Below, in pieces: positions 2 to 24,662 of a stretch of 24,662 nucleotides of DNA. The notes below the pieces were generated by a model. It was not told the DNA's origin. It did no database searches and saw nothing but the letters and a program-made list of their open reading frames with translations. Position 1 is the stretch's first letter; each line of letters begins with the position of its first letter. The translations under genes and the position numbers were made by a program. Where the stretch lies: the IMG/VR virus record IMGVR_UViG_3300020042_001560, positions 1 to 24,662 of that record; one strand, given 5' to 3'. Source of the stretch: a virus. Its lineage: Duplodnaviria; Caudoviricetes.

Positions 2-538
2 GCAGCAGAAGAAGTATCAGCAGGCCCAGGTGAAGCGATTGCGTTCCCTGCTGATGGTCGCGCTGAATATATAGAACCAGGTGGTACTAGTTTTGAGTAC
101 CAATTCAAGCGGCTAGAGCAGCTTGCAGGGCAGATTAATGAATTAGGTTTATCGGCAGTATTAGGTCAAAAGTTAAGCGCTGAAACAGCAGAAGCAAAAC
201 GCATTGACCGCAGCCAAGGCGATAGCACCATGATGGTAATTGCGCAGAATATGCAAGACATGATTGATAATTGCTTACAGTTTCATGCTGAATATCTCGG
301 CACTACTGAAGCGGCTGGTAGTTGTCATGTAAATCGTGATTTTATTGGCGCAAGACTAGAACCTCAGGAGATCCAAGCATTACTTCAGCTTTATACTGCT
401 GGCACCATCACGCAGGAGACATTACTGGAACAACTTGCTAATGGTGAAGTGTTAGGCGATGATTTTGATGTTGAAGAAGAACTCAGCGCAACTGCTAATG
501 GAGGGCTGAATGACGATACCGGCAGCCCTATTTCGTAA
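2..538 (+). CDS. Portal protein, C-terminal part (DUF4055-like); 5'-truncated by the window edge
   Basis: The frame of ORF 230..538 is open back to base 2 (AAEEVSAGPGEAIAFPADGRAEYIEPGG...AETAEAKRIDRSQGDS...). It has an acidic C-terminus with 'LYTAGTITQETLL' and lies directly upstream of a gpF-like gene. Confidence 0.8.
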   Translation, partial: AAEEVSAGPGEAIAFPADGRAEYIEPGGTSFEYQFKRLEQLAGQINELGLSAVLGQKLSAETAEAKRIDRSQGDSTMMVIAQNMQDMIDNCLQFHAEYLGTTEAAGSCHVNRDFIGARLEPQEIQALLQLYTAGTITQETLLEQLANGEVLGDDFDVEEELSATANGGLNDDTGSPIS

Positions 539-2576
539 CGCGATTGATTTAAACCGCTACAGCAATAGTGTAGGCCGTCAAATAGTAACAACTTATAATG
601 ATATTATTATTGACTCTGTAAACCAGCTACGAACAATTGACGAGCTAGCAGCACCAGTAAAAGCAGCAAGATTACGTGGGATATTAGCCCAGCTCAAAGA
701 CAGCCTTGATACATGGGCAGGTGATAGCACCGCTACCACTGCAAGCGAGCTGCAAGGCTTAGCAGAACTGCAATCTGATTTTGTTACTGAAGAGCTACGA
801 AAGGCATTGCCAGCAGGTGCTCGGAACATAGTGAATAGTGTAGAGATCAGCCCGCAATTTGCACAATCAGTAGTTACAACTGACCCGACACAGCTTAATG
901 TCGTGGCATTGTCGGATGATTTATACAAATCTGTCTATGGCGTGGAAGCGTTAGCCAATCAAGCAGGCACTGGTACATTCAGCCTCACCGCAGCAAAAGG
1001 CACAATGATCACTCTGCCTAACGGTGAGGTGGTAAGTAAAGCATTTCGTGGTATCGCTGTCGATCAAGCTGAACAGTTTGGGCAAGTGGTACGCAATGGC
1101 TTGTTAACAGGTGAGACTACATCTGATATTGCAAAGCGGTTAATTGGCAGCTTACAATTTGGCGAAGAGCCCACGATGATCAATAAGGCGCTTAAAAAGA
1201 TTATTGCAGCCGGCGGGCAATCAACTTCTATAGCTGATAACCAGATCATGGCGCTTGTACGTACAAGCATCAATCAGGTTGCTAATGCTGCCAGCCAACA
1301 GGTATACGAAGCAAACCAAGACATTACTAAGAAATATCGATACATTGCAACACTTGATACTAGAACCAGTGCAATATGCCGCGCATTGGATGGTCAAGAA
1401 TTTGACTATGGCAAAGGCCCGATGCCGCCGCAACATTTTAACTGCTTACCTGGCGACGCGATAGTAGCGCCCTGTGGCCGGATTGCGGCAGCTTACCGTC
1501 GGAGTTACGAGGGCTTTCTCTACGTCATCAAAACTGCCGATGGTCACGTAGTCAGAGTCACCCCAAATCATCCGATACTGACAAGTGCCGGATGGCAGCC
1601 TGCTCAAAGCATCAATGTGGGTGATCAAGTTTTCAGCCGCTCGATCGTTCCAGGCAAACTCATTCATGATTGCCAAAAAAGCAATGCTGTAGCCACTGCC
1701 GAGGATATATTTAGTGCGCTCAGGGAATCGAGCGCGATGTTGACCGTGGAAGTGCCAACCTCCGCCCCAGACTTCCACGGCGACACTTGGAGTGGTAGCC
1801 CAAGGATCAATCTTGCAAAGCAGGTCGCAGTTGTACTTGCCGATCGGAAATTGCTGCTCGCAGTTAACCCCAAATTGCTCAAGACTCTGTTGAACTTTGG
1901 ACTCCAAGGGTCCAATTTTGCGGCAGCGGGCAGCAGCCATCTTGATTTGAGTGATCTCGCTGTTAGGCCGTCCACGCTTAACAGCATTAGCGGCAGCAAC
2001 CAAAATTTTACGCTCGGCAGCGGTAGTGCGACCCATGCGAGCGAATTGCTGCTCGCTCCTATTCCTAAGATTGCGCCCGGATTCCATGATGATGCGCTCT
2101 ATGGGACGTGGCGAGACGTCGAAACGATCTGCAATACCACGGATACCAATACCATCGTCATAGGCGGAAATAATCAGGTCAATGTCGTCTGGATTAGGCG
2201 GGAACCATTTAGCGGGCATGTCTACAATTTTGAGACGGAGAGCGGCACCTATTGGGCCGATAGCATCCTAACCCATAATTGCAGGTCAACGACAGTGCCA
2301 GTGATTAATTATGAAGAGCTTGGGTTTGGTGCTCCTCCATCAGTTACGAAAGGCAAGCGTGCCAGCATTGATGGCCCAGTACCTGTTGGCACTACTTATG
2401 GGCAATGGCTTAAAGATCAACCACGTTCAGTGCAAGAAGATGTGCTAGGTAAAGATAAAGTAAAATACTTTAATCAATTAGCAGAAAAATACGGTGCACG
2501 CGATGCAATGGCAAAGCTAGTTCGTGACGATGGCTCCGAACTGACGCTAGAGCAACTCCGCAAGCGTTACGGCTAA
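510..2576 (+). CDS. Minor head / head morphogenesis protein (Mu gpF, SPP1 gp7 family), intein-containing precursor; 688 aa, 409 aa after splicing
   Basis: Family motif 'YIATLDTRTSAICRALDG...PMPPQHFN|CRST' is restored when residues 312-590 are removed. 'TYGQWLK.Q...Q..VLG' follows. Located after the portal. Confidence 0.9.
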   Translation: MTIPAALFRNAIDLNRYSNSVGRQIVTTYNDIIIDSVNQLRTIDELAAPVKAARLRGILAQLKDSLDTWAGDSTATTASELQGLAELQSDFVTEELRKALPAGARNIVNSVEISPQFAQSVVTTDPTQLNVVALSDDLYKSVYGVEALANQAGTGTFSLTAAKGTMITLPNGEVVSKAFRGIAVDQAEQFGQVVRNGLLTGETTSDIAKRLIGSLQFGEEPTMINKALKKIIAAGGQSTSIADNQIMALVRTSINQVANAASQQVYEANQDITKKYRYIATLDTRTSAICRALDGQEFDYGKGPMPPQHFNCLPGDAIVAPCGRIAAAYRRSYEGFLYVIKTADGHVVRVTPNHPILTSAGWQPAQSINVGDQVFSRSIVPGKLIHDCQKSNAVATAEDIFSALRESSAMLTVEVPTSAPDFHGDTWSGSPRINLAKQVAVVLADRKLLLAVNPKLLKTLLNFGLQGSNFAAAGSSHLDLSDLAVRPSTLNSISGSNQNFTLGSGSATHASELLLAPIPKIAPGFHDDALYGTWRDVETICNTTDTNTIVIGGNNQVNVVWIRREPFSGHVYNFETESGTYWADSILTHNCRSTTVPVINYEELGFGAPPSVTKGKRASIDGPVPVGTTYGQWLKDQPRSVQEDVLGKDKVKYFNQLAEKYGARDAMAKLVRDDGSELTLEQLRKRYG
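1446..2219 (-). CDS. Putative homing endonuclease (HTH + NUMOD3-like + Vsr/DUF559-type PD-(D/E)XK domain), antisense within the intein
   Basis: 257-aa ATG ORF. HTH-like 'IISAYDDGIGIRGIADRFDVSPRPIERII..G'; NUMOD3-like 'KRGRPNSEITQIKMAAAR'; nuclease core 'LESKVQQSLEQFGV...EQQFPIGKYNCDLL...VAVEVWGGGWH...ERTKYILGSGYSI'. Confidence 0.85.
   Translation of the reverse strand: MPAKWFPPNPDDIDLIISAYDDGIGIRGIADRFDVSPRPIERIIMESGRNLRNRSEQQFARMGRTTAAERKILVAAANAVKRGRPNSEITQIKMAAARCRKIGPLESKVQQSLEQFGVNCEQQFPIGKYNCDLLCKIDPWATTPSVAVEVWGGGWHFHGQHRARFPERTKYILGSGYSIAFLAIMNEFAWNDRAAENLITHIDALSRLPSGTCQYRMIWGDSDYVTIGSFDDVEKALVTPTVSCRNPATGRYYRVAR
2265..2272 (-). promoter_or_regulatory. Candidate -10 element (GTTAGGAT) for the antisense endonuclease
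   Basis: TAGGAT on the minus strand ends 45 nt upstream of the ATG at 2219. It has the same GnTAnnnT form as the + strand boxes. TTGACC lies upstream but with only a 13-nt spacer. Confidence 0.3.
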
Positions 2577-2608: not shown

Positions 2609-2698
2609 ATGCCTGGTTACATGGGCGGTCCAGCAAAACCACAAAAGCCAGCACCAAAAGGCAAAGGCACAAAACCTAAAGGAGACAAGAAAAAGTAA
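2609..2698 (+). CDS. Small Lys/Pro/Gly-rich peptide, 29 aa (MPGYMGGPAKPQKPAPKGKGTKPKGDKKK)
   Basis: Hand-translated; below the ORF-track cutoff. Fills the intergenic gap, and its TAA overlaps the next ATG (TAATG). Confidence 0.65.
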   Translation: MPGYMGGPAKPQKPAPKGKGTKPKGDKKK

Positions 2699-2919
2699 TG
2701 GCAAAACCTCGCCGCGTACCAAAAGACAAGGCAACCGGCTTGCCTAAAAAGTATCTCAGTGGTGCTAAAAACAAGAGTGCAAAAGCTCTTGAAATTAAGC
2801 GCACCGCCGAGGCTTATAAACGCGGTGAGTTTATTAACATTCAAGCAGTATCCGAATCGAGGACTAAACAGGATGCCAAGCGCAAAGCCCCTAAACGAAG
2901 CAACAAAAAAAGCGCTTAA
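2698..2919 (+). CDS. Small basic hypothetical protein, 73 aa
   Basis: ATG coupled to the upstream stop; 'RRVPKDKATGLPKKYLSG'; very K/R-rich. Confidence 0.7.
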   Translation: MAKPRRVPKDKATGLPKKYLSGAKNKSAKALEIKRTAEAYKRGEFINIQAVSESRTKQDAKRKAPKRSNKKSA

Positions 2920-3118
2920 AGCGAAAGCTGAAGGCACGCGCTTTACCTACGGTGAACTTGCTGCGGTTTATCGTCGCGGTCAAGGCGCATACCTATCTAG
3001 CGGCTCACGTAACGTGCCGATGACTGCATGGGCAATGGGTCGCGTTAATAGCTACATCTCAGGTGAAGGCGGCGCACGTAAAGCAGATGGTGATATCTAC
3101 AAAAAGGCTAGAAAGTAA
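2873..3118 (+). CDS. Small basic viral protein, 81 aa (resembles the DUF5824-type motif)
   Basis: ATG at 2873 with GAGG upstream. Motif 'LAAVYRRGQGAY...WAMGRVNSY...D.DI'. Stop overlaps the next ATG. Confidence 0.7.
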   Translation: MPSAKPLNEATKKALKAKAEGTRFTYGELAAVYRRGQGAYLSSGSRNVPMTAWAMGRVNSYISGEGGARKADGDIYKKARK

Positions 3119-3393
3119 TGGCAATCGAACGTGGCGGTCACAAATTTGAAGGTTACAACAAACCAATACGCACGCCAAATCATCCTAAAAAATCACATGC
3201 GGTACTCGCCAAAGAAGGCGACACCATCAAGCTCATACGATTCGGCCAGCAAGGTGTAAGCGGCAGCCCACCAACTAAAGGTGAATCTATGGCTGATAAG
3301 GCAAGACGCGCTAACTTCAAAGCAAGATTTGCTGCTGATATCGCTAAAGGGAAAATGAGTGCTGCATTCTGGGCAGATAAAGAAAAATGGTAG
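3118..3393 (+). CDS. Small basic conserved phage protein, 91 aa
   Basis: Motif 'KLIRFGQQG...RRANFKAR...KMSAAFWADKEKW'; TAATG coupling. Confidence 0.8.
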   Translation: MAIERGGHKFEGYNKPIRTPNHPKKSHAVLAKEGDTIKLIRFGQQGVSGSPPTKGESMADKARRANFKARFAADIAKGKMSAAFWADKEKW

Positions 3394-3423
3394 GTAAGAT
3401 ACAACTGCAAACGCAAAATATCA

Positions 3424-4068
3424 ATGTCTGAAGAAATCCAAGCAACAACAGATGAAACGCAAAAAAGCATTGAAGCACTGGAACGCAAAAACCAAGAATT
3501 GATTGCTGAATTACGTGCCGCAAAAAAGGCACCAAAGTTGCCTGATGGTGTGGACATTGACGAACTGCTCGAATTTAAGCGCCAAGCCCAGCAAACCGAA
3601 CTTGAATCCGCCGGTAAATATACCGAAGCAAGGCAAGCTTTGGAGCAGCAGTACCGTGAGACGACGGCGCAAAAGGACCAGCGCCTTACTGAACTTGAAA
3701 CCAGAATCAAAGACCTAGAACTCGTAGCACCAGCGATTCAAGCATTAGCTGATATCGTGCACGATCCAGATATGGTTTTAAAGAACAAACTAGGCAGCGA
3801 TCAAATTGAACGTGAAGCTGATGGCACCGTTGTAGTAGTTAATGGGTACCAACGCACGCCAGTAGCAGAATGGGCAAAAACTTTACCGGCATGGATGCAA
3901 AAGGCACCGAAACCACAAGGCAGCGGTGCACCATCAGGCAATGCACCAAGCAGCTTGCCAATAGGCGTTAAAAATCCATTTGCGCCGGAATCATTCAACT
4001 TGACGGAACAGGCACGATTGTTTAGGACTGACCGCGATTTGTACGACCGCTTTAAAGCTAACCGCTAG
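3424..4068 (+). CDS. Capsid scaffolding protein
   Basis: Helical/coiled-coil E/Q/K-rich N-terminus, a 'PKPQGSGAPSG' linker and a 'KNPF...FNLTEQARL' tail. Immediately upstream of the capsid gene. Confidence 0.85.
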   Translation: MSEEIQATTDETQKSIEALERKNQELIAELRAAKKAPKLPDGVDIDELLEFKRQAQQTELESAGKYTEARQALEQQYRETTAQKDQRLTELETRIKDLELVAPAIQALADIVHDPDMVLKNKLGSDQIEREADGTVVVVNGYQRTPVAEWAKTLPAWMQKAPKPQGSGAPSGNAPSSLPIGVKNPFAPESFNLTEQARLFRTDRDLYDRFKANR

Positions 4069-12532: not shown

Positions 12533-12999
12533 GCATTCAAGCTATTGCAAATTTTATTGAACTCCAATCTGTCGATGGCAATAGCCAATCACGCTATCAA
12601 AATAGCAATGTTGGTGGCGTGATGACCTATGACGGTCATGGTTACAACTACCTGAGCTTTCTATATCAAGGCGCTAGTAGAAACCGCACCGGGGATAATA
12701 TATCTAGCTCGCTAACAATTGCGCAGAATGCTATATCAATGAATATAGCCCAACAAGCAATAATTAATTTCTGGAGCATTCGAGTTGATACGTTAGCGGT
12801 ACATCCGCAAACGCTTGCTGTTGGTAGGTTGCTTTCTACCGAATACTGGGTTGCTACAACAATGACGTACGACACCAATGCTGTAATCATTGAACTTAGC
12901 AGTGGCATTGATGCTGTCGGTGCTGATGCGCCGTTTAGATCATTGACCCGTGACTTAGTAGGTGCATTACCATTAAGCGCATCCATCCGCAACGGCTGA
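12529..12999 (+). CDS. Minor tail / tail tip protein (lambda gpL-like position)
   Basis: ATGA overlap with the tape measure gene; 'YDGHGYNYLSF', 'IELSSGIDAVG..AP.R.LT'. Confidence 0.6.
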   Translation: MSIQAIANFIELQSVDGNSQSRYQNSNVGGVMTYDGHGYNYLSFLYQGASRNRTGDNISSSLTIAQNAISMNIAQQAIINFWSIRVDTLAVHPQTLAVGRLLSTEYWVATTMTYDTNAVIIELSSGIDAVGADAPFRSLTRDLVGALPLSASIRNG

Positions 13000-13004
13000 T
13001 AGGC

Positions 13005-13343
13005 ATGGGCTATCGGTTGGGTGCTATCCCAGCTGTGCATGGCATGGGCGATTGCCTCAGTTTGGCCTGCGCTGTTTTGACGTGGTATGGCATTGAGGTG
13101 CCAATGCCTAAACGTGATTGGTATCGAAGGCTTAGGCGCGGAGATCGCAGTGTATTTCCTGACGAGCTTGGCGCGTGGGGCCAAAGGACAGATACAGCTA
13201 GAATAGGTACAATAGGTTTAACCCCCACCGGGCTAACAACTTTTTACGAGGGTGGATGGCTTTATTACAGCCCGGAACAACAGGTAGCATGGACACCTCT
13301 GGGACTCCTTACGGACGTAGAGCTTTATTGCCCTCGGAAGTAG
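13005..13343 (+). CDS. Tail assembly protein, degenerate NlpC/P60 (lambda gpK-like)
   Basis: 'YRLGA.P...GDCLSL..AVL..YGIEVP...WY' pattern, positioned before the hub gene. Confidence 0.6.
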   Translation: MGYRLGAIPAVHGMGDCLSLACAVLTWYGIEVPMPKRDWYRRLRRGDRSVFPDELGAWGQRTDTARIGTIGLTPTGLTTFYEGGWLYYSPEQQVAWTPLGLLTDVELYCPRK

Positions 13344-19141: not shown

Positions 19142-21573
19142 TGGCTAACCAGCGGATCGATCAGCTAGTTGCTGAAACAGCGCCAGCAGCAGCAGATTTG
19201 CTGCCCTTATATTCGATTGCAGGCAGTGATACTAAGAGAATTACAGTTAAAAATCTAATACAGCAAGGCGCTGCATTAGTAGATAACGCATCAATACCAG
19301 TTGCAAAAATTGCAAGCATCACCGAGGCCAACCTAGGTAACACCAGTGCTGTTGGGCAGTTTGTCGCTGGGCCAGCTGCCGCAACTGGGGCATTAACCAA
19401 GCGCCGCATCGTAGCGGCTGATTTACCATTAGCGACAACCAGCGCCGTTGGAGGTATATCCGCATCAACGGGTCTGGCGGTATCAGGCGCTGGAGCACTC
19501 ACCGTTGCAGCAGCGACAACCGTTGCAGTTGGCGGCATATCGGTTCCCAGTTCATCCGGGTTAAGTGTTTCCGCTGGTGGGGTGATATCCCATACAGCAT
19601 CAATCTCTCCTGGTACTACATCAGGCGTAACCGTATCAGCTTCCGGGCACGTAACTGCACTCGCAGCACTGGTTGGCGCTGACCTGCCACTCGCAACCAC
19701 CAGTGTGGTGGGTGGTATATCAGTCGGATCTGGTTTTGCGGTAACCGGCGCTGGTGTATTGAACCATGGCGCAACAGTAACTGCCGCAACTGTTTCAGGG
19801 ATTACATTTAACGCCACTGGTCATATCACTGCCGCTACGGCATTAGTTGGGGCAGATTTACCTGCCGCAACAACGTCTGTAAAAGGTGGCGTTTCAATCC
19901 CGTCTGGGGCGCTAAGCGTAAACGGTTCAGGTGCTGTAACCCATGACGTATCTGGTGTTACCGCTGGAACGTATCCAAAAGTAACGGTAGATACTCGCGG
20001 CCACGTAACCGCTGGCGCGGCACTTGATGCCAATGATATTCCAAACATAAGCGCCGCAAAACTTACGAGCGGAACTGTTGCAACAAGTGTTTTAGGCACG
20101 AACTCAATAACGGGCGTTAAACTTGCCAATTATTCCACTGTGCAATTTGGTGGTGCAGGTAGCACGACAGGTATTGTTACATTCCCGACACCAGAATTTA
20201 CCGGCCAAGGGTTTTTTGATAGTTCAAACGGCGATTATTACATCTACGATGGCAACACATGGCAGCCTCTAACCGTTATCAGCGGCAACCTTGTTTACGC
20301 TGGCACGTATAACGCTTCAAATAATCAAGTTGCATCAGTCACAACTGCAGGCACCGCAGGCGGCTTAGTTGTTGGCAACGCATTACCTGCTGGTTCTGCC
20401 ACGCTAAGCCAGTATTACGTTGTTGTATCACAATCCGGCAACGGCGTGTCACCTGCGCCAGTGGTAGCGCTTGCGCCACCAGACATGATTATTTGCAATG
20501 GCGCGACATGGGATCTGGTTGACGTTTCAAACGCTATCGCTGGTCAAACTGCAACCAATATTTCTGTAACGCCTTATGGCAACATTGCGTCTACTAATGT
20601 TCAGACAGCGATACAAGAACTAGACGACGAGAAGATTGCCAAGACTGGCGGCACTGTTACTGGCGAATTACTAATTGGCACTGCTGGCACGTTTGCGTTT
20701 GAGGGCAGCACTGCTAACGCCTATGAAACATATTTGTCTGCAACGGACCCAACAGCAGATCGCGCCATTGTTTTCCCCGATCTATCAGGCACTGTAATCA
20801 TTAGCGGCAATGCCTCAATTGTTAATGCGGATATAAGTGTTACCGCTGCGATTGTAGATACTAAATTGGCAACTATTGCTACAGCTGGCAAGGTTAGCAA
20901 TAGCGCTACTACGGCCACAAACAGCAATACTTTATCAGCGATTGTTGCAAGGGATGCCTCGGGCAACTTTACCGCTGGCACAATTACTGCTGCTTTAACT
21001 GGCGTTGCTAGCAGCGCAACAGCGCTTGCTACAGCGCGAACAATTCAAGGCGTAAGTTTTGACGGTACTGCTAATATCACCGTTGCAACTGCTGGCAGCG
21101 GCATCAGTGTTACAGGAACTGCAATTGCTAACACTGGCGTCTTAAGCGTAAATGGCAGCACTGGGACGGTTACTGGGATTGCGCCTACAGCGTCACCAAC
21201 ATTTACTGGCACATTATCTGGGTCTGTTGGTTCTTTTTCTAGCACCCTTAGCGATATTATTGGCAATGTTCGCAGCATCCCGCAAAACGCAAAGACTGCG
21301 GCATATCAATTACTTGCCACTGACAATGGGCAACACATTAGTATCACTACTGGCGGCGTAACTGTGCCAAGCGCTATTTTTACTGCAGGCCAAGTTGTTA
21401 CAATTTTCAATAACAGCGCAAGCAGTCAAACAATTACACAAGGCGGAAGCGTCACTTTGCGTCAGGCTGGCACTGCCAGCACAGGTAATAGAACACTTGC
21501 TCAATACGGCGTGGCTACAATCCTTTGCGTAGACAGCAACACTTTTGTAATCACTGGCACGGGGGTAACGTAA
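19141..21573 (+). CDS. Tail fibre protein
   Basis: 810 aa, A/G/T/S/V-rich. Repeats 'ADLP.ATTS..GG.S' and 'GHVTA', plus 'SGVTAGTYPKVTVD', 'LATARTIQGVSFDGTANI' and a C-terminal beta head. Confidence 0.9.
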   Translation: MANQRIDQLVAETAPAAADLLPLYSIAGSDTKRITVKNLIQQGAALVDNASIPVAKIASITEANLGNTSAVGQFVAGPAAATGALTKRRIVAADLPLATTSAVGGISASTGLAVSGAGALTVAAATTVAVGGISVPSSSGLSVSAGGVISHTASISPGTTSGVTVSASGHVTALAALVGADLPLATTSVVGGISVGSGFAVTGAGVLNHGATVTAATVSGITFNATGHITAATALVGADLPAATTSVKGGVSIPSGALSVNGSGAVTHDVSGVTAGTYPKVTVDTRGHVTAGAALDANDIPNISAAKLTSGTVATSVLGTNSITGVKLANYSTVQFGGAGSTTGIVTFPTPEFTGQGFFDSSNGDYYIYDGNTWQPLTVISGNLVYAGTYNASNNQVASVTTAGTAGGLVVGNALPAGSATLSQYYVVVSQSGNGVSPAPVVALAPPDMIICNGATWDLVDVSNAIAGQTATNISVTPYGNIASTNVQTAIQELDDEKIAKTGGTVTGELLIGTAGTFAFEGSTANAYETYLSATDPTADRAIVFPDLSGTVIISGNASIVNADISVTAAIVDTKLATIATAGKVSNSATTATNSNTLSAIVARDASGNFTAGTITAALTGVASSATALATARTIQGVSFDGTANITVATAGSGISVTGTAIANTGVLSVNGSTGTVTGIAPTASPTFTGTLSGSVGSFSSTLSDIIGNVRSIPQNAKTAAYQLLATDNGQHISITTGGVTVPSAIFTAGQVVTIFNNSASSQTITQGGSVTLRQAGTASTGNRTLAQYGVATILCVDSNTFVITGTGVT
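19415..20015 (+). repeat. Protein-level tandem repeats in the tail fibre shaft (approximate limits)
   Basis: Four (LP)xATT..xGGxS units and three T..VT...GH(V/I)TA units in alternation. Confidence 0.75.
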
Positions 21574-23420: not shown

Positions 23421-23623
23421 TTGAATTTGCCATCCGTCAATGGTGGTTTGAGAAGACGTTGCCAGCAAAGCTAGACGCTGCCGAAGCTGAATGGCATAAA
23501 ACTCAACCGTTACCGCCGCCGCCAATCGTGATAGAACACCCTATCAACGATGAGTTGCAAACAGGCGCTAGTCGCTTGTTAGGTGGTGAGATTTCAATCC
23601 ATGCACCGTACGACCGCTCATGA
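23381..23623 (+). CDS. -1 frame extension of the holin-like protein (80 codons; fusion about 125 aa)
   Basis: Open frame GLIRFGKAAWERDLEFAIRQWWFEKTLPAKLDAAEAEW...LLGGEISIHAPYDRS*. It contains no ATG, and its TGA overlaps the endolysin ATG. Confidence 0.65.
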   Translation, partial: GLIRFGKAAWERDLEFAIRQWWFEKTLPAKLDAAEAEWHKTQPLPPPPIVIEHPINDELQTGASRLLGGEISIHAPYDRS

Positions 23624-24662
23624 ATTTTCTCGCCGCCGTAAAAGCCACCAGCAGACCAGCAGCATTGCCACACCAAATGGCTGCATGGAACTATGCGTGG
23701 GACCTGTTGACTATTGAGGAGCAGCAAGAATTTCTGAGCAAATTCAGGGCTGATCCACCAGCTAAGGCAATAACGGAGCCCACCTACGGCAACACCTGGG
23801 CTGGTGTAACGGCTGCGGCCAAAGTGTCGGGCGCCAAATATCCTGAGCTAGTGGCTGCGCAATGGGCGCTTGAATCTGGATATGGCAAGCATGTATCTGG
23901 CACCCATAACTATTTTGGGCTGAAAGGATCCGGCACTGCTACCAAAACTCAGGAGTTTATTAACGGCCAAATGGTGTCAATGGTTGACTCATTCATTGAC
24001 TTTCCTGATTTACTGTCATGCGTCCGCTACCTCGTTCACAGGTGGCACTGTGATTACGTGGCATATAAAGGTTGCAATAGCGCAGCCAACCGCAATGAAC
24101 CTGCTAAGTGGCTAGTGAAAGATGGTTACGCTACCGATCCTGATTACGCTGATAAGTTAATTAAGCTAATGAGTGAGCAGGGCGCACCAGCTAAAGCCAC
24201 GTCTGTGTTGCTTAAGGTGCCATGCGAGGCGCAAAATGACAATGCCAGCGGCACAGGTTATAGAGAATGTTTCTCCAGTAGTTGCGCGATGATTGCTAAA
24301 TTTTACGGCAAGGTAAAAAACGACGATGAATACAATTTAATTCGTGCCAAATTTGGCGATACGACGGATTCACAAGCACAACTTGCAGCTTTGCGCTCCC
24401 TAGGTTTGCAAGCACGATTCGTAACCAATGCAGCGCAAGGTTTATTAGATCTTGAATTACGTGCTGGCAGACCTGTGGCGGTGGGCTGGTTACATCATGG
24501 GCCGTACAACGCGCCTACAGGCGGTGGACATTGGAGCGTAGTGATCGGTTTTACTGTTGAGCATTGGATTCAAAACGATCCCAATGGCGAGGCAGATCTC
24601 ATTAACGGTGGCTACACCAGCAATAAAAACGGTGCTGCCGTCAAATACAGCCGTCCGCGCTG
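23620..24662 (+). CDS. Endolysin: GH73 glucosaminidase/muramidase plus C39-like cysteine peptidase; 3'-truncated
   Basis: Hand-translated; open to the window end, so absent from the ORF track. GH73: 'AAQWALESGYG', 'NYFGLKG', 'GYATDPDY'. C39-like: 'QNDN...RECFSSSCAM', 'GRPVAVGWLH', 'GGGHWSVVIG', 'NDP'. Confidence 0.9.
   Translation, partial: MNFLAAVKATSRPAALPHQMAAWNYAWDLLTIEEQQEFLSKFRADPPAKAITEPTYGNTWAGVTAAAKVSGAKYPELVAAQWALESGYGKHVSGTHNYFGLKGSGTATKTQEFINGQMVSMVDSFIDFPDLLSCVRYLVHRWHCDYVAYKGCNSAANRNEPAKWLVKDGYATDPDYADKLIKLMSEQGAPAKATSVLLKVPCEAQNDNASGTGYRECFSSSCAMIAKFYGKVKNDDEYNLIRAKFGDTTDSQAQLAALRSLGLQARFVTNAAQGLLDLELRAGRPVAVGWLHHGPYNAPTGGGHWSVVIGFTVEHWIQNDPNGEADLINGGYTSNKNGAAVKYSRPR

What the first reader, a model, noticed from the sequence alone, without database searches (positions are those of the whole stretch)
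1443..2279. Intein whose homing endonuclease appears to be a separate gene on the opposite strand
Seen: a complete intein (C1; TPNH; VYNFE; THN/C) whose central ~170 aa show no LAGLIDADG or HNH motif. The reverse strand holds a 257-aa ATG ORF fully inside the intein. It has an HTH-like N-terminus (aa ~13-52), a NUMOD3-like segment (aa ~81-98) and a Vsr/DUF559-type core (E106, Q-F-P-I-G-K-Y-N-C-D132, E149-V-W-G-G-G-W-H156). Established: canonical inteins carry the endonuclease in-frame within the same polypeptide, and Vsr-like (EDxHD-type) enzymes with NUMOD/HTH modules act as phage homing endonucleases. Inference: the endonuclease gene invaded a mini-intein in reverse orientation, and the sense frame stayed open so the passenger sequence is spliced out. 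Standard gene callers would miss this two-strand element. I know of no description of this architecture but cannot check the literature.
Basis: partly seen in the sequence, partly recalled or inferred. Interest (0 to 1): 0.95.

Follow-up and report, generated by a model that had tools for sequence, protein, structure and literature searches.

The report
Intein interlocked with antisense nuclease gene
A phage head-assembly gene carries a predicted self-splicing insert (intein) whose opposite DNA strand encodes a conserved, predicted DNA-cutting enzyme that likely spreads the insert; a 2025 preprint already described this layout, but the two proteins overlap in their working parts and the intein likely needs a piece encoded opposite the enzyme's predicted active site.

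Summary
Confirmed: a 279-aa intein (1443-2279) sits in a phage MuF head-morphogenesis gene. A 257-aa ORF (2219-1446) lies on the other strand in codon register. It models as HTH plus Vsr-like nuclease (pLDDT 94; Vsr Z 12.2) and is under purifying selection. The element shows homing signatures: intein 98.8% identical between phages whose flanks are 58-85% identical, and a near-identical empty allele.

The layout is not new. Gosselin et al. (bioRxiv 2025) report anti-sense VSR-like inteins, Gordonia phages carry homologs, and this scan has met it many times on other DNA.

The nuclease ORF covers the whole N-terminal splicing region. Its start codon, and in most lineages a likely promoter and ribosome site, lie in blocks F/G. 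The family lacks the usual segment between blocks A and B. A sense-frame segment ending in FHGD, opposite the nuclease's predicted catalytic strand, is selected, and is kept in a natural mini-intein and where an HNH gene replaced the nuclease. It likely completes the splicing fold (complex prediction: weak support). Splicing, cleavage and expression are untested. The last Asp of EDxHD is not conserved.

The parts
510..2576 (+). Host gene: MuF / SPP1 gp7-like head morphogenesis precursor, 688 aa (409 aa after predicted splicing), between portal and scaffold genes
   Evidence: Pfam Phage_Mu_F E 3.7e-12; phrog_241 E 3.6e-85
1443..2279 (+). Class 1-type intein, 279 aa, inserted at HFN|CRS
   Evidence: Motifs in sequence; Hint fold, Z 13.9 to 1at0; the same site is empty in 77 of 80 loci with the closest exteins
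1443..1637 (+). N-terminal splicing region (aa 1-65, block B at 1560-1571), about 20-35 aa shorter between blocks A and B than canonical inteins; double-coded with the nuclease C-terminal tail
   Evidence: pLDDT 90-97 over aa 1-60; spacing; omega sense 0.39, antisense 0.49
1692..1784 (+). Sense-frame segment aa 84-114 (helix AEDIF.. to D-F-H-G-D at 1770-1784), likely part of the splicing domain; lies opposite the nuclease's predicted catalytic strand V146-E149
   Evidence: Codon freezing; kept in mini-intein P0249 and in HNH-replaced copies; pLDDT 86 for 81-100 and 50-68 for 101-120; complex prediction weak support
1848..2162 (+). Sense-frame passenger linker aa 136-240, kept free of stops
   Evidence: Sense omega 0.90; 0 sense-stop codons among 1574 Leu and 1485 Ser nuclease codons in 80 lineages; low pLDDT
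2163..2279 (+). C-terminal splicing region aa 241-279 (blocks F and G)
   Evidence: pLDDT 90-97; sense omega 0.07 for aa 260-279
1446..2219 (-). Antisense gene, 257 aa: HTH (about aa 11-46), helical linker, Vsr-like nuclease domain (about aa 100-235), C-terminal strands. Start = reverse complement of block F His codon; stop = reverse complement of intein Leu2
   Evidence: Model pLDDT 94.2; Vsr 1cw0 Z 12.2, I-Bth0305I 3r3p Z 9.8; start opposite CAT or CAC in 127 of 131 inteins
2265..2270 (-). Predicted -10 box of the antisense gene (TAGGAT here, 4 of 6, no extended TG; TATAAT in 20 of 79 lineages), written in block G codons
   Evidence: 46 of 79 lineages match at least 5 of 6, against 16.4 +/- 2.9 in synonymous recodings. 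Weak in this copy; no transcript data
2227..2232 (-). Position of the family's predicted Shine-Dalgarno site (block F Asn-Leu codons); absent in this copy
   Evidence: 71 of 79 lineages have at least 4 contiguous matches, against 42.7 +/- 4.0 expected; the window scores 0

Best explanation
This is a predicted self-splicing intein in a phage MuF gene whose opposite strand encodes, codon against codon, a conserved HTH plus Vsr-like protein that likely cuts intein-free MuF alleles and so likely spreads the element by homing. The precursor would splice to give 409-aa MuF. The nuclease would be made from its own antisense transcript, starting at a predicted promoter in block G, with its start codon opposite the block F His. 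During co-infection it would cut the empty site of a related phage, and repair from the intein-bearing genome would copy the element. The two genes are interlocked. The nuclease's last strands are read from the antisense of blocks B and A. The intein lacks the usual segment between blocks A and B and likely takes a substitute (aa 84 to about 135, with FHGD) from the DNA that encodes the predicted catalytic strand. Shown: anatomy, selection on both frames, patchy distribution. Predicted: both folds. Inferred: splicing, expression, cleavage, and the role of aa 84-135.
For: Nuclease fold and conserved acidic residues. Antisense omega 0.15-0.21 across aa 66-240, against 1.43 for the antisense of the extein. 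Antisense stops 0 observed against 90 expected in codons 30-75 of 78 lineages. Window versus L001: intein 98.8% identical, flanks 58-85%. Window versus empty L108: 98.6% upstream, 89% in the last 100 nt, 100% downstream. At least 7 gains or losses are forced on the extein tree. The empty allele co-occurs in 3 of 3 DNA runs laid. Promoter and SD enrichment. Short A-B spacing goes with the antisense gene in 126 of 126, long spacing in 0 of 20. FHGD codon freezing and retention after loss of the nuclease. Fragment 78-118 on the Hint core scored 0.47 against a best control of 0.01: weak support.
Against: No activity or expression is shown; one RNA contig of depth 3.7 covers 1663-1885, with strand unknown and DNA carry-over possible. 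The Asp matching I-Bth0305I D222 is not conserved. This copy has a weak -10 box and no SD. FHGD itself is modelled at pLDDT 50-68, and about 1 in 5 copies deviate from it (101 of 129 exact). Likeness of aa 84-95 to the missing canonical segment is weak (hhalign probability 1.5%, P 0.034). Slow intein divergence is partly expected from double coding, and the exteins look mosaic. The tree was the quick search, and intein-bearing and empty alleles were sampled by different searches.
Confidence: 0.8

Rival explanations
1. The layout and homing are as above, but the sense centre is pure passenger. The invariant bases at FHGD/VAVE would be a nucleic-acid signal (operator or RNA element) or a shadow of nuclease constraints, not a protein motif of the intein.
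For: FHGD lies exactly opposite V-A-V-E, and pLDDT there is low. The complex score is only weak support. In three HNH-replaced contigs (L548, L552, L570) the HNH tail overlaps the motif.
Against: Variation falls at sense third positions (GAY, GAY, GGN), while antisense synonymous sites are frozen: GAA 79/80, GTG 76/76, GCC 74/76. Equally invariant E106 uses GAA 42 and GAG 36. Mini-intein P0249 keeps the helix and DFHGD. L549 keeps FHGDG with synonymous changes and no HNH overlap.
Confidence: 0.3
2. The antisense protein is real but is not the element's homing enzyme. It would be a DNA-binding or mismatch-nicking protein that benefits the phage, and the element would move by ordinary recombination.
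For: The best fold match is Vsr, a mismatch nickase. The last EDxHD Asp is missing.
Against: It was found only inside inteins in 92 of 92 loci examined. It is patchily distributed and occupies several insertion sites. The replacement by HNH genes in some copies suggests the slot holds a mobility nuclease.
Confidence: 0.12
3. The antisense ORF is an untranslated shadow of codon bias in a decayed canonical intein.
For: In-register antisense ORFs arise by chance; this window has another antisense ORF of 218 aa.
Against: Stop depletion, antisense omega about 0.17, a confident nuclease fold, and 1,279 clusters at E<=1e-30.
Confidence: 0.01

Closest known systems
Full inteins with an anti-sense VSR-like homing endonuclease in actinobacteriophages (Gosselin, Arsenault, Gogarten, bioRxiv 10.1101/2025.01.02.630785; seen: abstract, passages, sections 7 and 15; supplements closed)
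   Same: Contiguous intein, unstructured sense centre, antisense Vsr/EDxHD-like nuclease (their matches 1CW0 and 3R3P are also ours), and minor capsid (IPR006528) among the host genes of their non-canonical inteins. Gordonia phages Angelicage and ViaConlectus carry homologous elements in MuF (hhalign E 1.4e-31).
   Different: [quoted passage not shown] Here the ORF covers blocks A and B and part of F. Its main text has no hit for promoter, ribosome, truncat or permut. This copy is from an uncultured phage found in freshwater metagenome runs. Which host genes hold their VSR-like type is in a figure and supplement I could not see.
I-Bth0305I / EDxHD homing endonucleases (PMC3239194; seen: passages and section 17)
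   Same: N-terminal HTH-type DNA-binding region plus C-terminal Vsr-like domain; Glu, Asp and His at matching positions (E106, D132, H156; match inferred from profile and fold).
   Different: Encoded in a group I intron, not antisense in an intein. It has two NUMOD2 motifs and an essential D222, which has no conserved counterpart here. Our protein has about 50 extra C-terminal residues read from the intein's antisense.
Cyanobacterial dnaX intein with out-of-frame LAGLIDADG nuclease (bioRxiv 10.64898/2026.09.14.751524; seen: abstract, sections 10 and 17)
   Same: Nuclease in a separate overlapping ORF; selection falls on that frame; sporadic distribution; empty alleles co-exist.
   Different: A +2 frame ORF, a LAGLIDADG enzyme, a cellular gene, and common mini-inteins.
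Split inteins flanking a Vsr-like endonuclease gene (Dassa et al. 2009, PMC2677866; seen: search listing, and as cited in the 2025 preprint)
   Same: Vsr-like nuclease gene associated with an intein.
   Different: The intein is split into two genes; here it is contiguous and read through.
HINT-HEN mutualism, e.g. Mja TFIIB intein (as summarised in PMC6801210; seen: passages)
   Same: Splicing depends on sequence at the endonuclease site, which slows loss of the endonuclease region.
   Different: There the in-frame nuclease domain braces the fold. Here the likely helper segment is the opposite-strand reading of nuclease DNA.

Membership tests
Class 1 intein | Cys1, block B TxxH, terminal His-Asn, +1 Cys/Ser/Thr | tested here: met
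   C1, T40, H43, H278, N279 invariant in 110 aligned inteins; C+1
Class 1 intein | Hint fold | tested here: met
   Z 10-13.9 to 21 solved Hint domains, about 100-115 residues aligned; segment between blocks A and B is short
Class 1 intein | Exact in-frame insertion relative to an empty allele | tested here: met
   77 of 80 loci read HFN|CRS without insert; contigs skip 837 nt
Class 1 intein | Self-splicing activity | not testable with these tools
   Needs protein expression
Anti-sense VSR-like HEN intein (Gosselin 2025) | Intact ORF on the anti-sense strand inside a full intein | tested here: met
Anti-sense VSR-like HEN intein (Gosselin 2025) | Antisense product has a Vsr-like fold | tested here: met
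   1cw0 Z 12.2, rmsd 2.4, 115 aligned; 3r3p Z 9.8. Foldseek alone gave no match at E<=0.001
Anti-sense VSR-like HEN intein (Gosselin 2025) | No recognisable in-frame endonuclease | tested here: met
   No LAGLIDADG or HNH Pfam hit; aa 111-240 block pLDDT 33-63; fold search returned only Hint-type hits above Z 4
Anti-sense VSR-like HEN intein (Gosselin 2025) | Secondary ORF typically outside the splicing domain | tested here: not met
   The ORF covers intein codons 2-259; the Gordonia homologs also overlap block B. The preprint gives this as a tendency, not a rule
EDxHD homing endonuclease | Glu, Asp and His of the motif | tested here: met
   E106 78/80, D132 80/80, H156 59/80 lineages
EDxHD homing endonuclease | Last Asp (I-Bth0305I D222, Vsr D97) | tested here: not met
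   No conserved Asp in helix 159-174; the Asp of 3hrl aligns to a variable position, F165 here. Sequence-level test only
EDxHD homing endonuclease | N-terminal NUMOD/HTH DNA-binding region | tested here: inconclusive
   HTH yes; no NUMOD family hit
Homing endonuclease (function) | Cleaves the empty allele near the insertion site | not testable with these tools
   Only indirect signs

The most novel reading that the evidence does not exclude
This large intein family is a mutually overprinted selfish element. The nuclease gained its C-terminal strands, start codon, ribosome site and promoter from the antisense of the intein's catalytic blocks. The intein lost a standard piece of the Hint fold and replaced it with a segment read from the DNA of the nuclease's catalytic strand. 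The result is an internally rearranged Hint domain that cannot shed that DNA, and the most constrained 12 bases became the site where HNH genes replace the resident nuclease.
Probability: 0.5. Interest if true: 0.65.

Novelty: new member of a known kind. Interest (0 to 1): 0.42.

Why it matters
The layout is published, so this copy mainly extends its range. The family is large (1,279 clusters at E<=1e-30), and in the 8 cultured-phage records opened the antisense gene is not annotated. If the interlock holds, it is a natural case of two folded, functional domains encoded codon against codon on opposite strands. It would also be a rearranged Hint fold, and a reason why the step from full intein to mini-intein in the homing cycle is rare here (1 of 88 precursors with a measured intein). 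Cultured homologs such as Escherichia phage Snoke and Gordonia phages make all of this directly testable.

Tried and rejected
Chance antisense ORF: rejected. In-frame LAGLIDADG or HNH remnant in the sense centre: none found. NUMOD3: no Pfam hit. The standard sigma-70 scan found nothing above chance and missed the block G site (4 sites against 3.1 expected); a terminator-like hairpin at 1700-1680 on the minus strand is also at chance level. Rfam: no match in the window. Foldseek on the nuclease gave no match at E<=0.001; VIA-align did. Co-conversion upstream of the site: the last 100 nt differ from the nearest empty allele (89%), but the region is mosaic, so no tract can be called. Expression: only one low-depth RNA contig, not usable. 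A motif scan for the canonical segment picked offset +46/47 in 21 of 79 lineages and the symmetric copy at +14 in 16, which is suggestive only. Free-standing relatives were not found, but the lists seen were capped at the best hits, so the nuclease's origin is open. The careful tree did not finish; the quick tree was used. Host organism not determined. Literature: searches listed no paper on double coding of the splicing domain or a rearranged Hint fold; subscription journals and bioRxiv supplements were not searchable.

Full report
OBSERVATION. The window is a 24.7-kb piece of a tailed-phage structural region, a virus record about 50% complete, running portal, MuF, scaffold, capsid, connector and tail genes. 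ORF 510-2576 is a Phage_Mu_F protein. It holds a 279-aa intein at 1443-2279 with C1, TPNH at 40-43, VYNFE and HN/C. A 257-aa ORF runs 2219-1446 on the other strand in exact codon register. Its ATG is the reverse complement of the block F His codon, and its stop is that of intein Leu2. It therefore covers the N-terminal splicing region as well as the centre.

THE ANTISENSE PROTEIN. With 145 aligned sequences it models at mean pLDDT 94.2 along its whole length. VIA-align gives Vsr 1cw0 (Z 12.2, rmsd 2.4, model 100-235), I-Bth0305I 3r3p (Z 9.8) and HTH domains for aa 1-49. Foldseek alone found nothing at E<=0.001. Across 80 lineages (clusters at 55% identity) E106 is kept in 78, D132 in 80, E149 in 80 and H156 in 59. 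No Asp matching the last EDxHD residue is conserved, and no NUMOD family was hit. So it looks like an EDxHD/Vsr-type homing nuclease but is not filed as an EDxHD member.

MORE THAN CHANCE. In 92 of 92 loci found by nuclease homology (some redundant) the in-register sense frame was open across the match. To avoid that selection I also collected inteins by sense motifs only. With a block F/G pattern, 65 of 120 loci could be parsed and all 65 carried the antisense gene; 55 were too short or unparsed. In 129 distinct inteins, codons that would stop the antisense frame number 2 against 174.5 expected in codons 17-75. In 78 lineages they number 0 against 90 in codons 30-75. The sense frame is kept open too: none of 1574 Leu and 1485 Ser nuclease codons is TTA, CTA or TCA. 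NG86 on 28 close inteins (27 spanning-tree pairs) gave omega, sense/antisense: extein 0.11/1.43; aa 3-65 0.39/0.49; aa 66-83 1.24/0.15; aa 84-135 0.52/0.21; aa 136-240 0.90/0.17; aa 241-258 0.36/0.36; aa 260-279 0.07/2.68. In overlaps these ratios are coupled between frames, so they are read as a pattern, not as exact values.

MOBILITY. Of the 80 loci with the closest exteins, 77 are empty at HFN|CRS. The window's sister on the extein tree is the empty L108. The tree needs at least 9 label changes, 7 forced by strong branches; it is a quick tree of 84 rows with one incomplete extein left out, and the two allele types came from different searches. The window and L001 share 98.8% of the intein but 58-85% of the flanks. 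L003 and L004 share 95.7% against 48-72%. Contigs that skip the 837 nt stand beside intein-bearing ones in 3 of 3 DNA runs laid. This is the expected trace of homing. It does not show cleavage.

EXPRESSION SIGNALS. Read antisense, block G gives a -10 box: 46 of 79 lineages match at least 5 of 6, against 16.4 +/- 2.9 in 500 synonymous recodings, and 27 against 3.4 also have the extended TG. Block F gives a Shine-Dalgarno-like site in 71 of 79, against 42.7 (one of 80 lineages was unparsed). The residue opposite the start is His (CAT 113, CAC 14) in 127 of 131. This copy is weak: TAGGAT, no TG, no SD. One RNA contig of depth 3.7 is no proof of transcription.

THE SENSE CENTRE IS NOT ALL PASSENGER. 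The intein model is confident at aa 1-70, 81-100 and 241-279 and poor at 111-240. About 100-115 residues align to solved Hint domains. Among 156 distinct loci picked by block B alone, spacing from Cys1 to block B was short (35-42) in 126, and all 126 had the antisense gene. It was long (57 or more) without the gene in 20. Of the other 10, two scored long by a wrong Cys and start without Cys1, two had 51-52 with the gene, and six were undetermined, two of them with the gene. The long ones carry the usual I-E-x-V-type segment after block A. The short family lacks it but has a similar helix at aa 84-95; the likeness is weak (P 0.034). At aa 110-115 the sense motif D-F-H-G-D-G lies opposite nuclease V146-A-V-E149. 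There the antisense synonymous sites are frozen (GAA 79/80, GTG 76/76, GCC 74/76, GTC 65/65), while E106 uses GAA 42 and GAG 36. The variation that remains is at sense third positions. In a wider set FHGD is exact in 101 of 129. Natural deletions agree. P0249 is a 178-aa mini-intein, the only one among 88 precursors with a measured intein (91 examined). It has Trp at the start-codon position and lacks about 100 central residues, yet keeps the helix, DFHGD and the next strand (its DNA was not seen). L447 (210 aa, nuclease stopped early) keeps the segment as DFHDD. In L548, L552, L570 and L549 an HNH gene in another antisense frame (Pfam HNH, E 1e-8 to 1e-10) has replaced most of the Vsr-like gene up to this motif. 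The sense frame stays open and FHGDG stays. These were found with a pattern that fixed F and part of H, so only G-D-G is independent, and in three of the four the HNH tail overlaps the motif. A three-fragment prediction placed aa 78-118 on the Hint core with score 0.47 against a best control of 0.01 (runs agree in at least 72% of contacts, partner pLDDT 53-54). The tool rates this weak: the mark was reached by 116 of 157 solved complexes and 2 of 215 mismatches, and at 0.60 or under by 18 solved and both mismatches. Pieces of one fold may also pass by likeness to solved inteins. I put the interlock at about 0.5-0.6.

MECHANISM. Shown: anatomy, selection on both frames, patchy spread. Predicted: both folds. 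Inferred from established intein and homing biology: the precursor splices to 409-aa MuF; the nuclease is made from an internal antisense promoter, cuts the empty MuF site in a co-infecting phage, and repair copies the element. Inferred here: aa 84 to about 135 complete the splicing domain, so the DNA of the nuclease's catalytic strand cannot be deleted freely.

WHAT IS KNOWN. Gosselin, Arsenault and Gogarten (bioRxiv 10.1101/2025.01.02.630785; abstract, passages, sections 7 and 15 read) report full inteins with anti-sense VSR-like nucleases, list minor capsid proteins among the hosts of non-canonical inteins, and propose invasion by a free-standing nuclease. tblastn found 105 cultured-phage records with homologs, 6 of them Gordonia phages. 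The two opened have the same anatomy in MuF. Whether these exact phages are the preprint's VSR-like set is in supplements I could not see. [quoted passage not shown] Searches listed nothing on the interlock. Earlier notes of this scan list 147 findings with these words in at least 134 genomes. Some mention the promoter and ribosome site, and one a rearranged fold. I had reached the preprint and these features before reading them, and they are not independent evidence.

VERDICT. Real, selected and likely mobile, but a new member of a published kind. What raises it above routine is the double coding of working parts on both strands and the likely rearranged Hint fold, both testable with simple deletions. 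Interest 0.42.

Noticed in passing
L548:1500-2051, L552:486-1037, L570:1291-1890, L549:1551-2102 (all minus strand): An HNH gene, antisense and in a different frame, has replaced most of the Vsr-like gene inside otherwise similar inteins. The junction is at the doubly constrained FHGD/VAVE bases and the sense frame is still open. Search 92 and the scan look-up listed nothing on it.
   Followed up: partly
P0249 aa 273-450: Natural 178-aa mini-intein of this family in MuF; keeps the helix and DFHGD, with Trp where the antisense start codon would be.
   Followed up: partly
L441 (Microbispora oryzae contig): Intein at a MuF-like site (HEVIQ|C...HN|CRC) with canonical A-to-B spacing and an antisense ORF bearing a LAGLIDADG-like motif by eye; would match the preprint's other antisense type.
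   Followed up: no
L328, L369, L379, L475: Family members whose intein appears to start without Cys1 (Ala, or Gly/Ser); possibly a different splicing class.
   Followed up: no
L316, L360, L428, L436, L461, L476, L485, L500, L323, L487, L506: The same two-strand intein occurs at other insertion sites with different flanks (e.g. TN|CPVN, GS|CTAN, RTE|T); host genes were not identified.
   Followed up: no
P0012-P0020, L214, L233, L466: The nuclease's N-terminal HTH unit occurs in one to several copies, giving intein lengths of about 265, 320, 365 and up to 445 aa.
   Followed up: no
L100, L101 (Escherichia phage Snoke, Salmonella phage LSPA1): Cultured Guernseyvirinae carry the element, with an unannotated antisense gene; Snoke has a perfect extended -10 box and SD. 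A ready test system.
   Followed up: partly
L551, L594: Intact antisense ORFs with Lys in place of the E149-equivalent while FHGD is kept; possibly inactive nucleases.
   Followed up: no
window 19161-19817, 3180-3710, 12666-13184 (minus strand): Other long antisense ORFs (218, 176, 172 aa). Two were scanned and had no Pfam match; probably shadows.
   Followed up: partly
window 2698-3393: Three small basic ORFs between MuF and scaffold, with weak DUF5824 and DUF5754 matches below cut-off.
   Followed up: no
window 23620-24662: An open frame runs off the end of the window after the tail genes; by position a candidate lysis enzyme. Not scanned.
   Followed up: no
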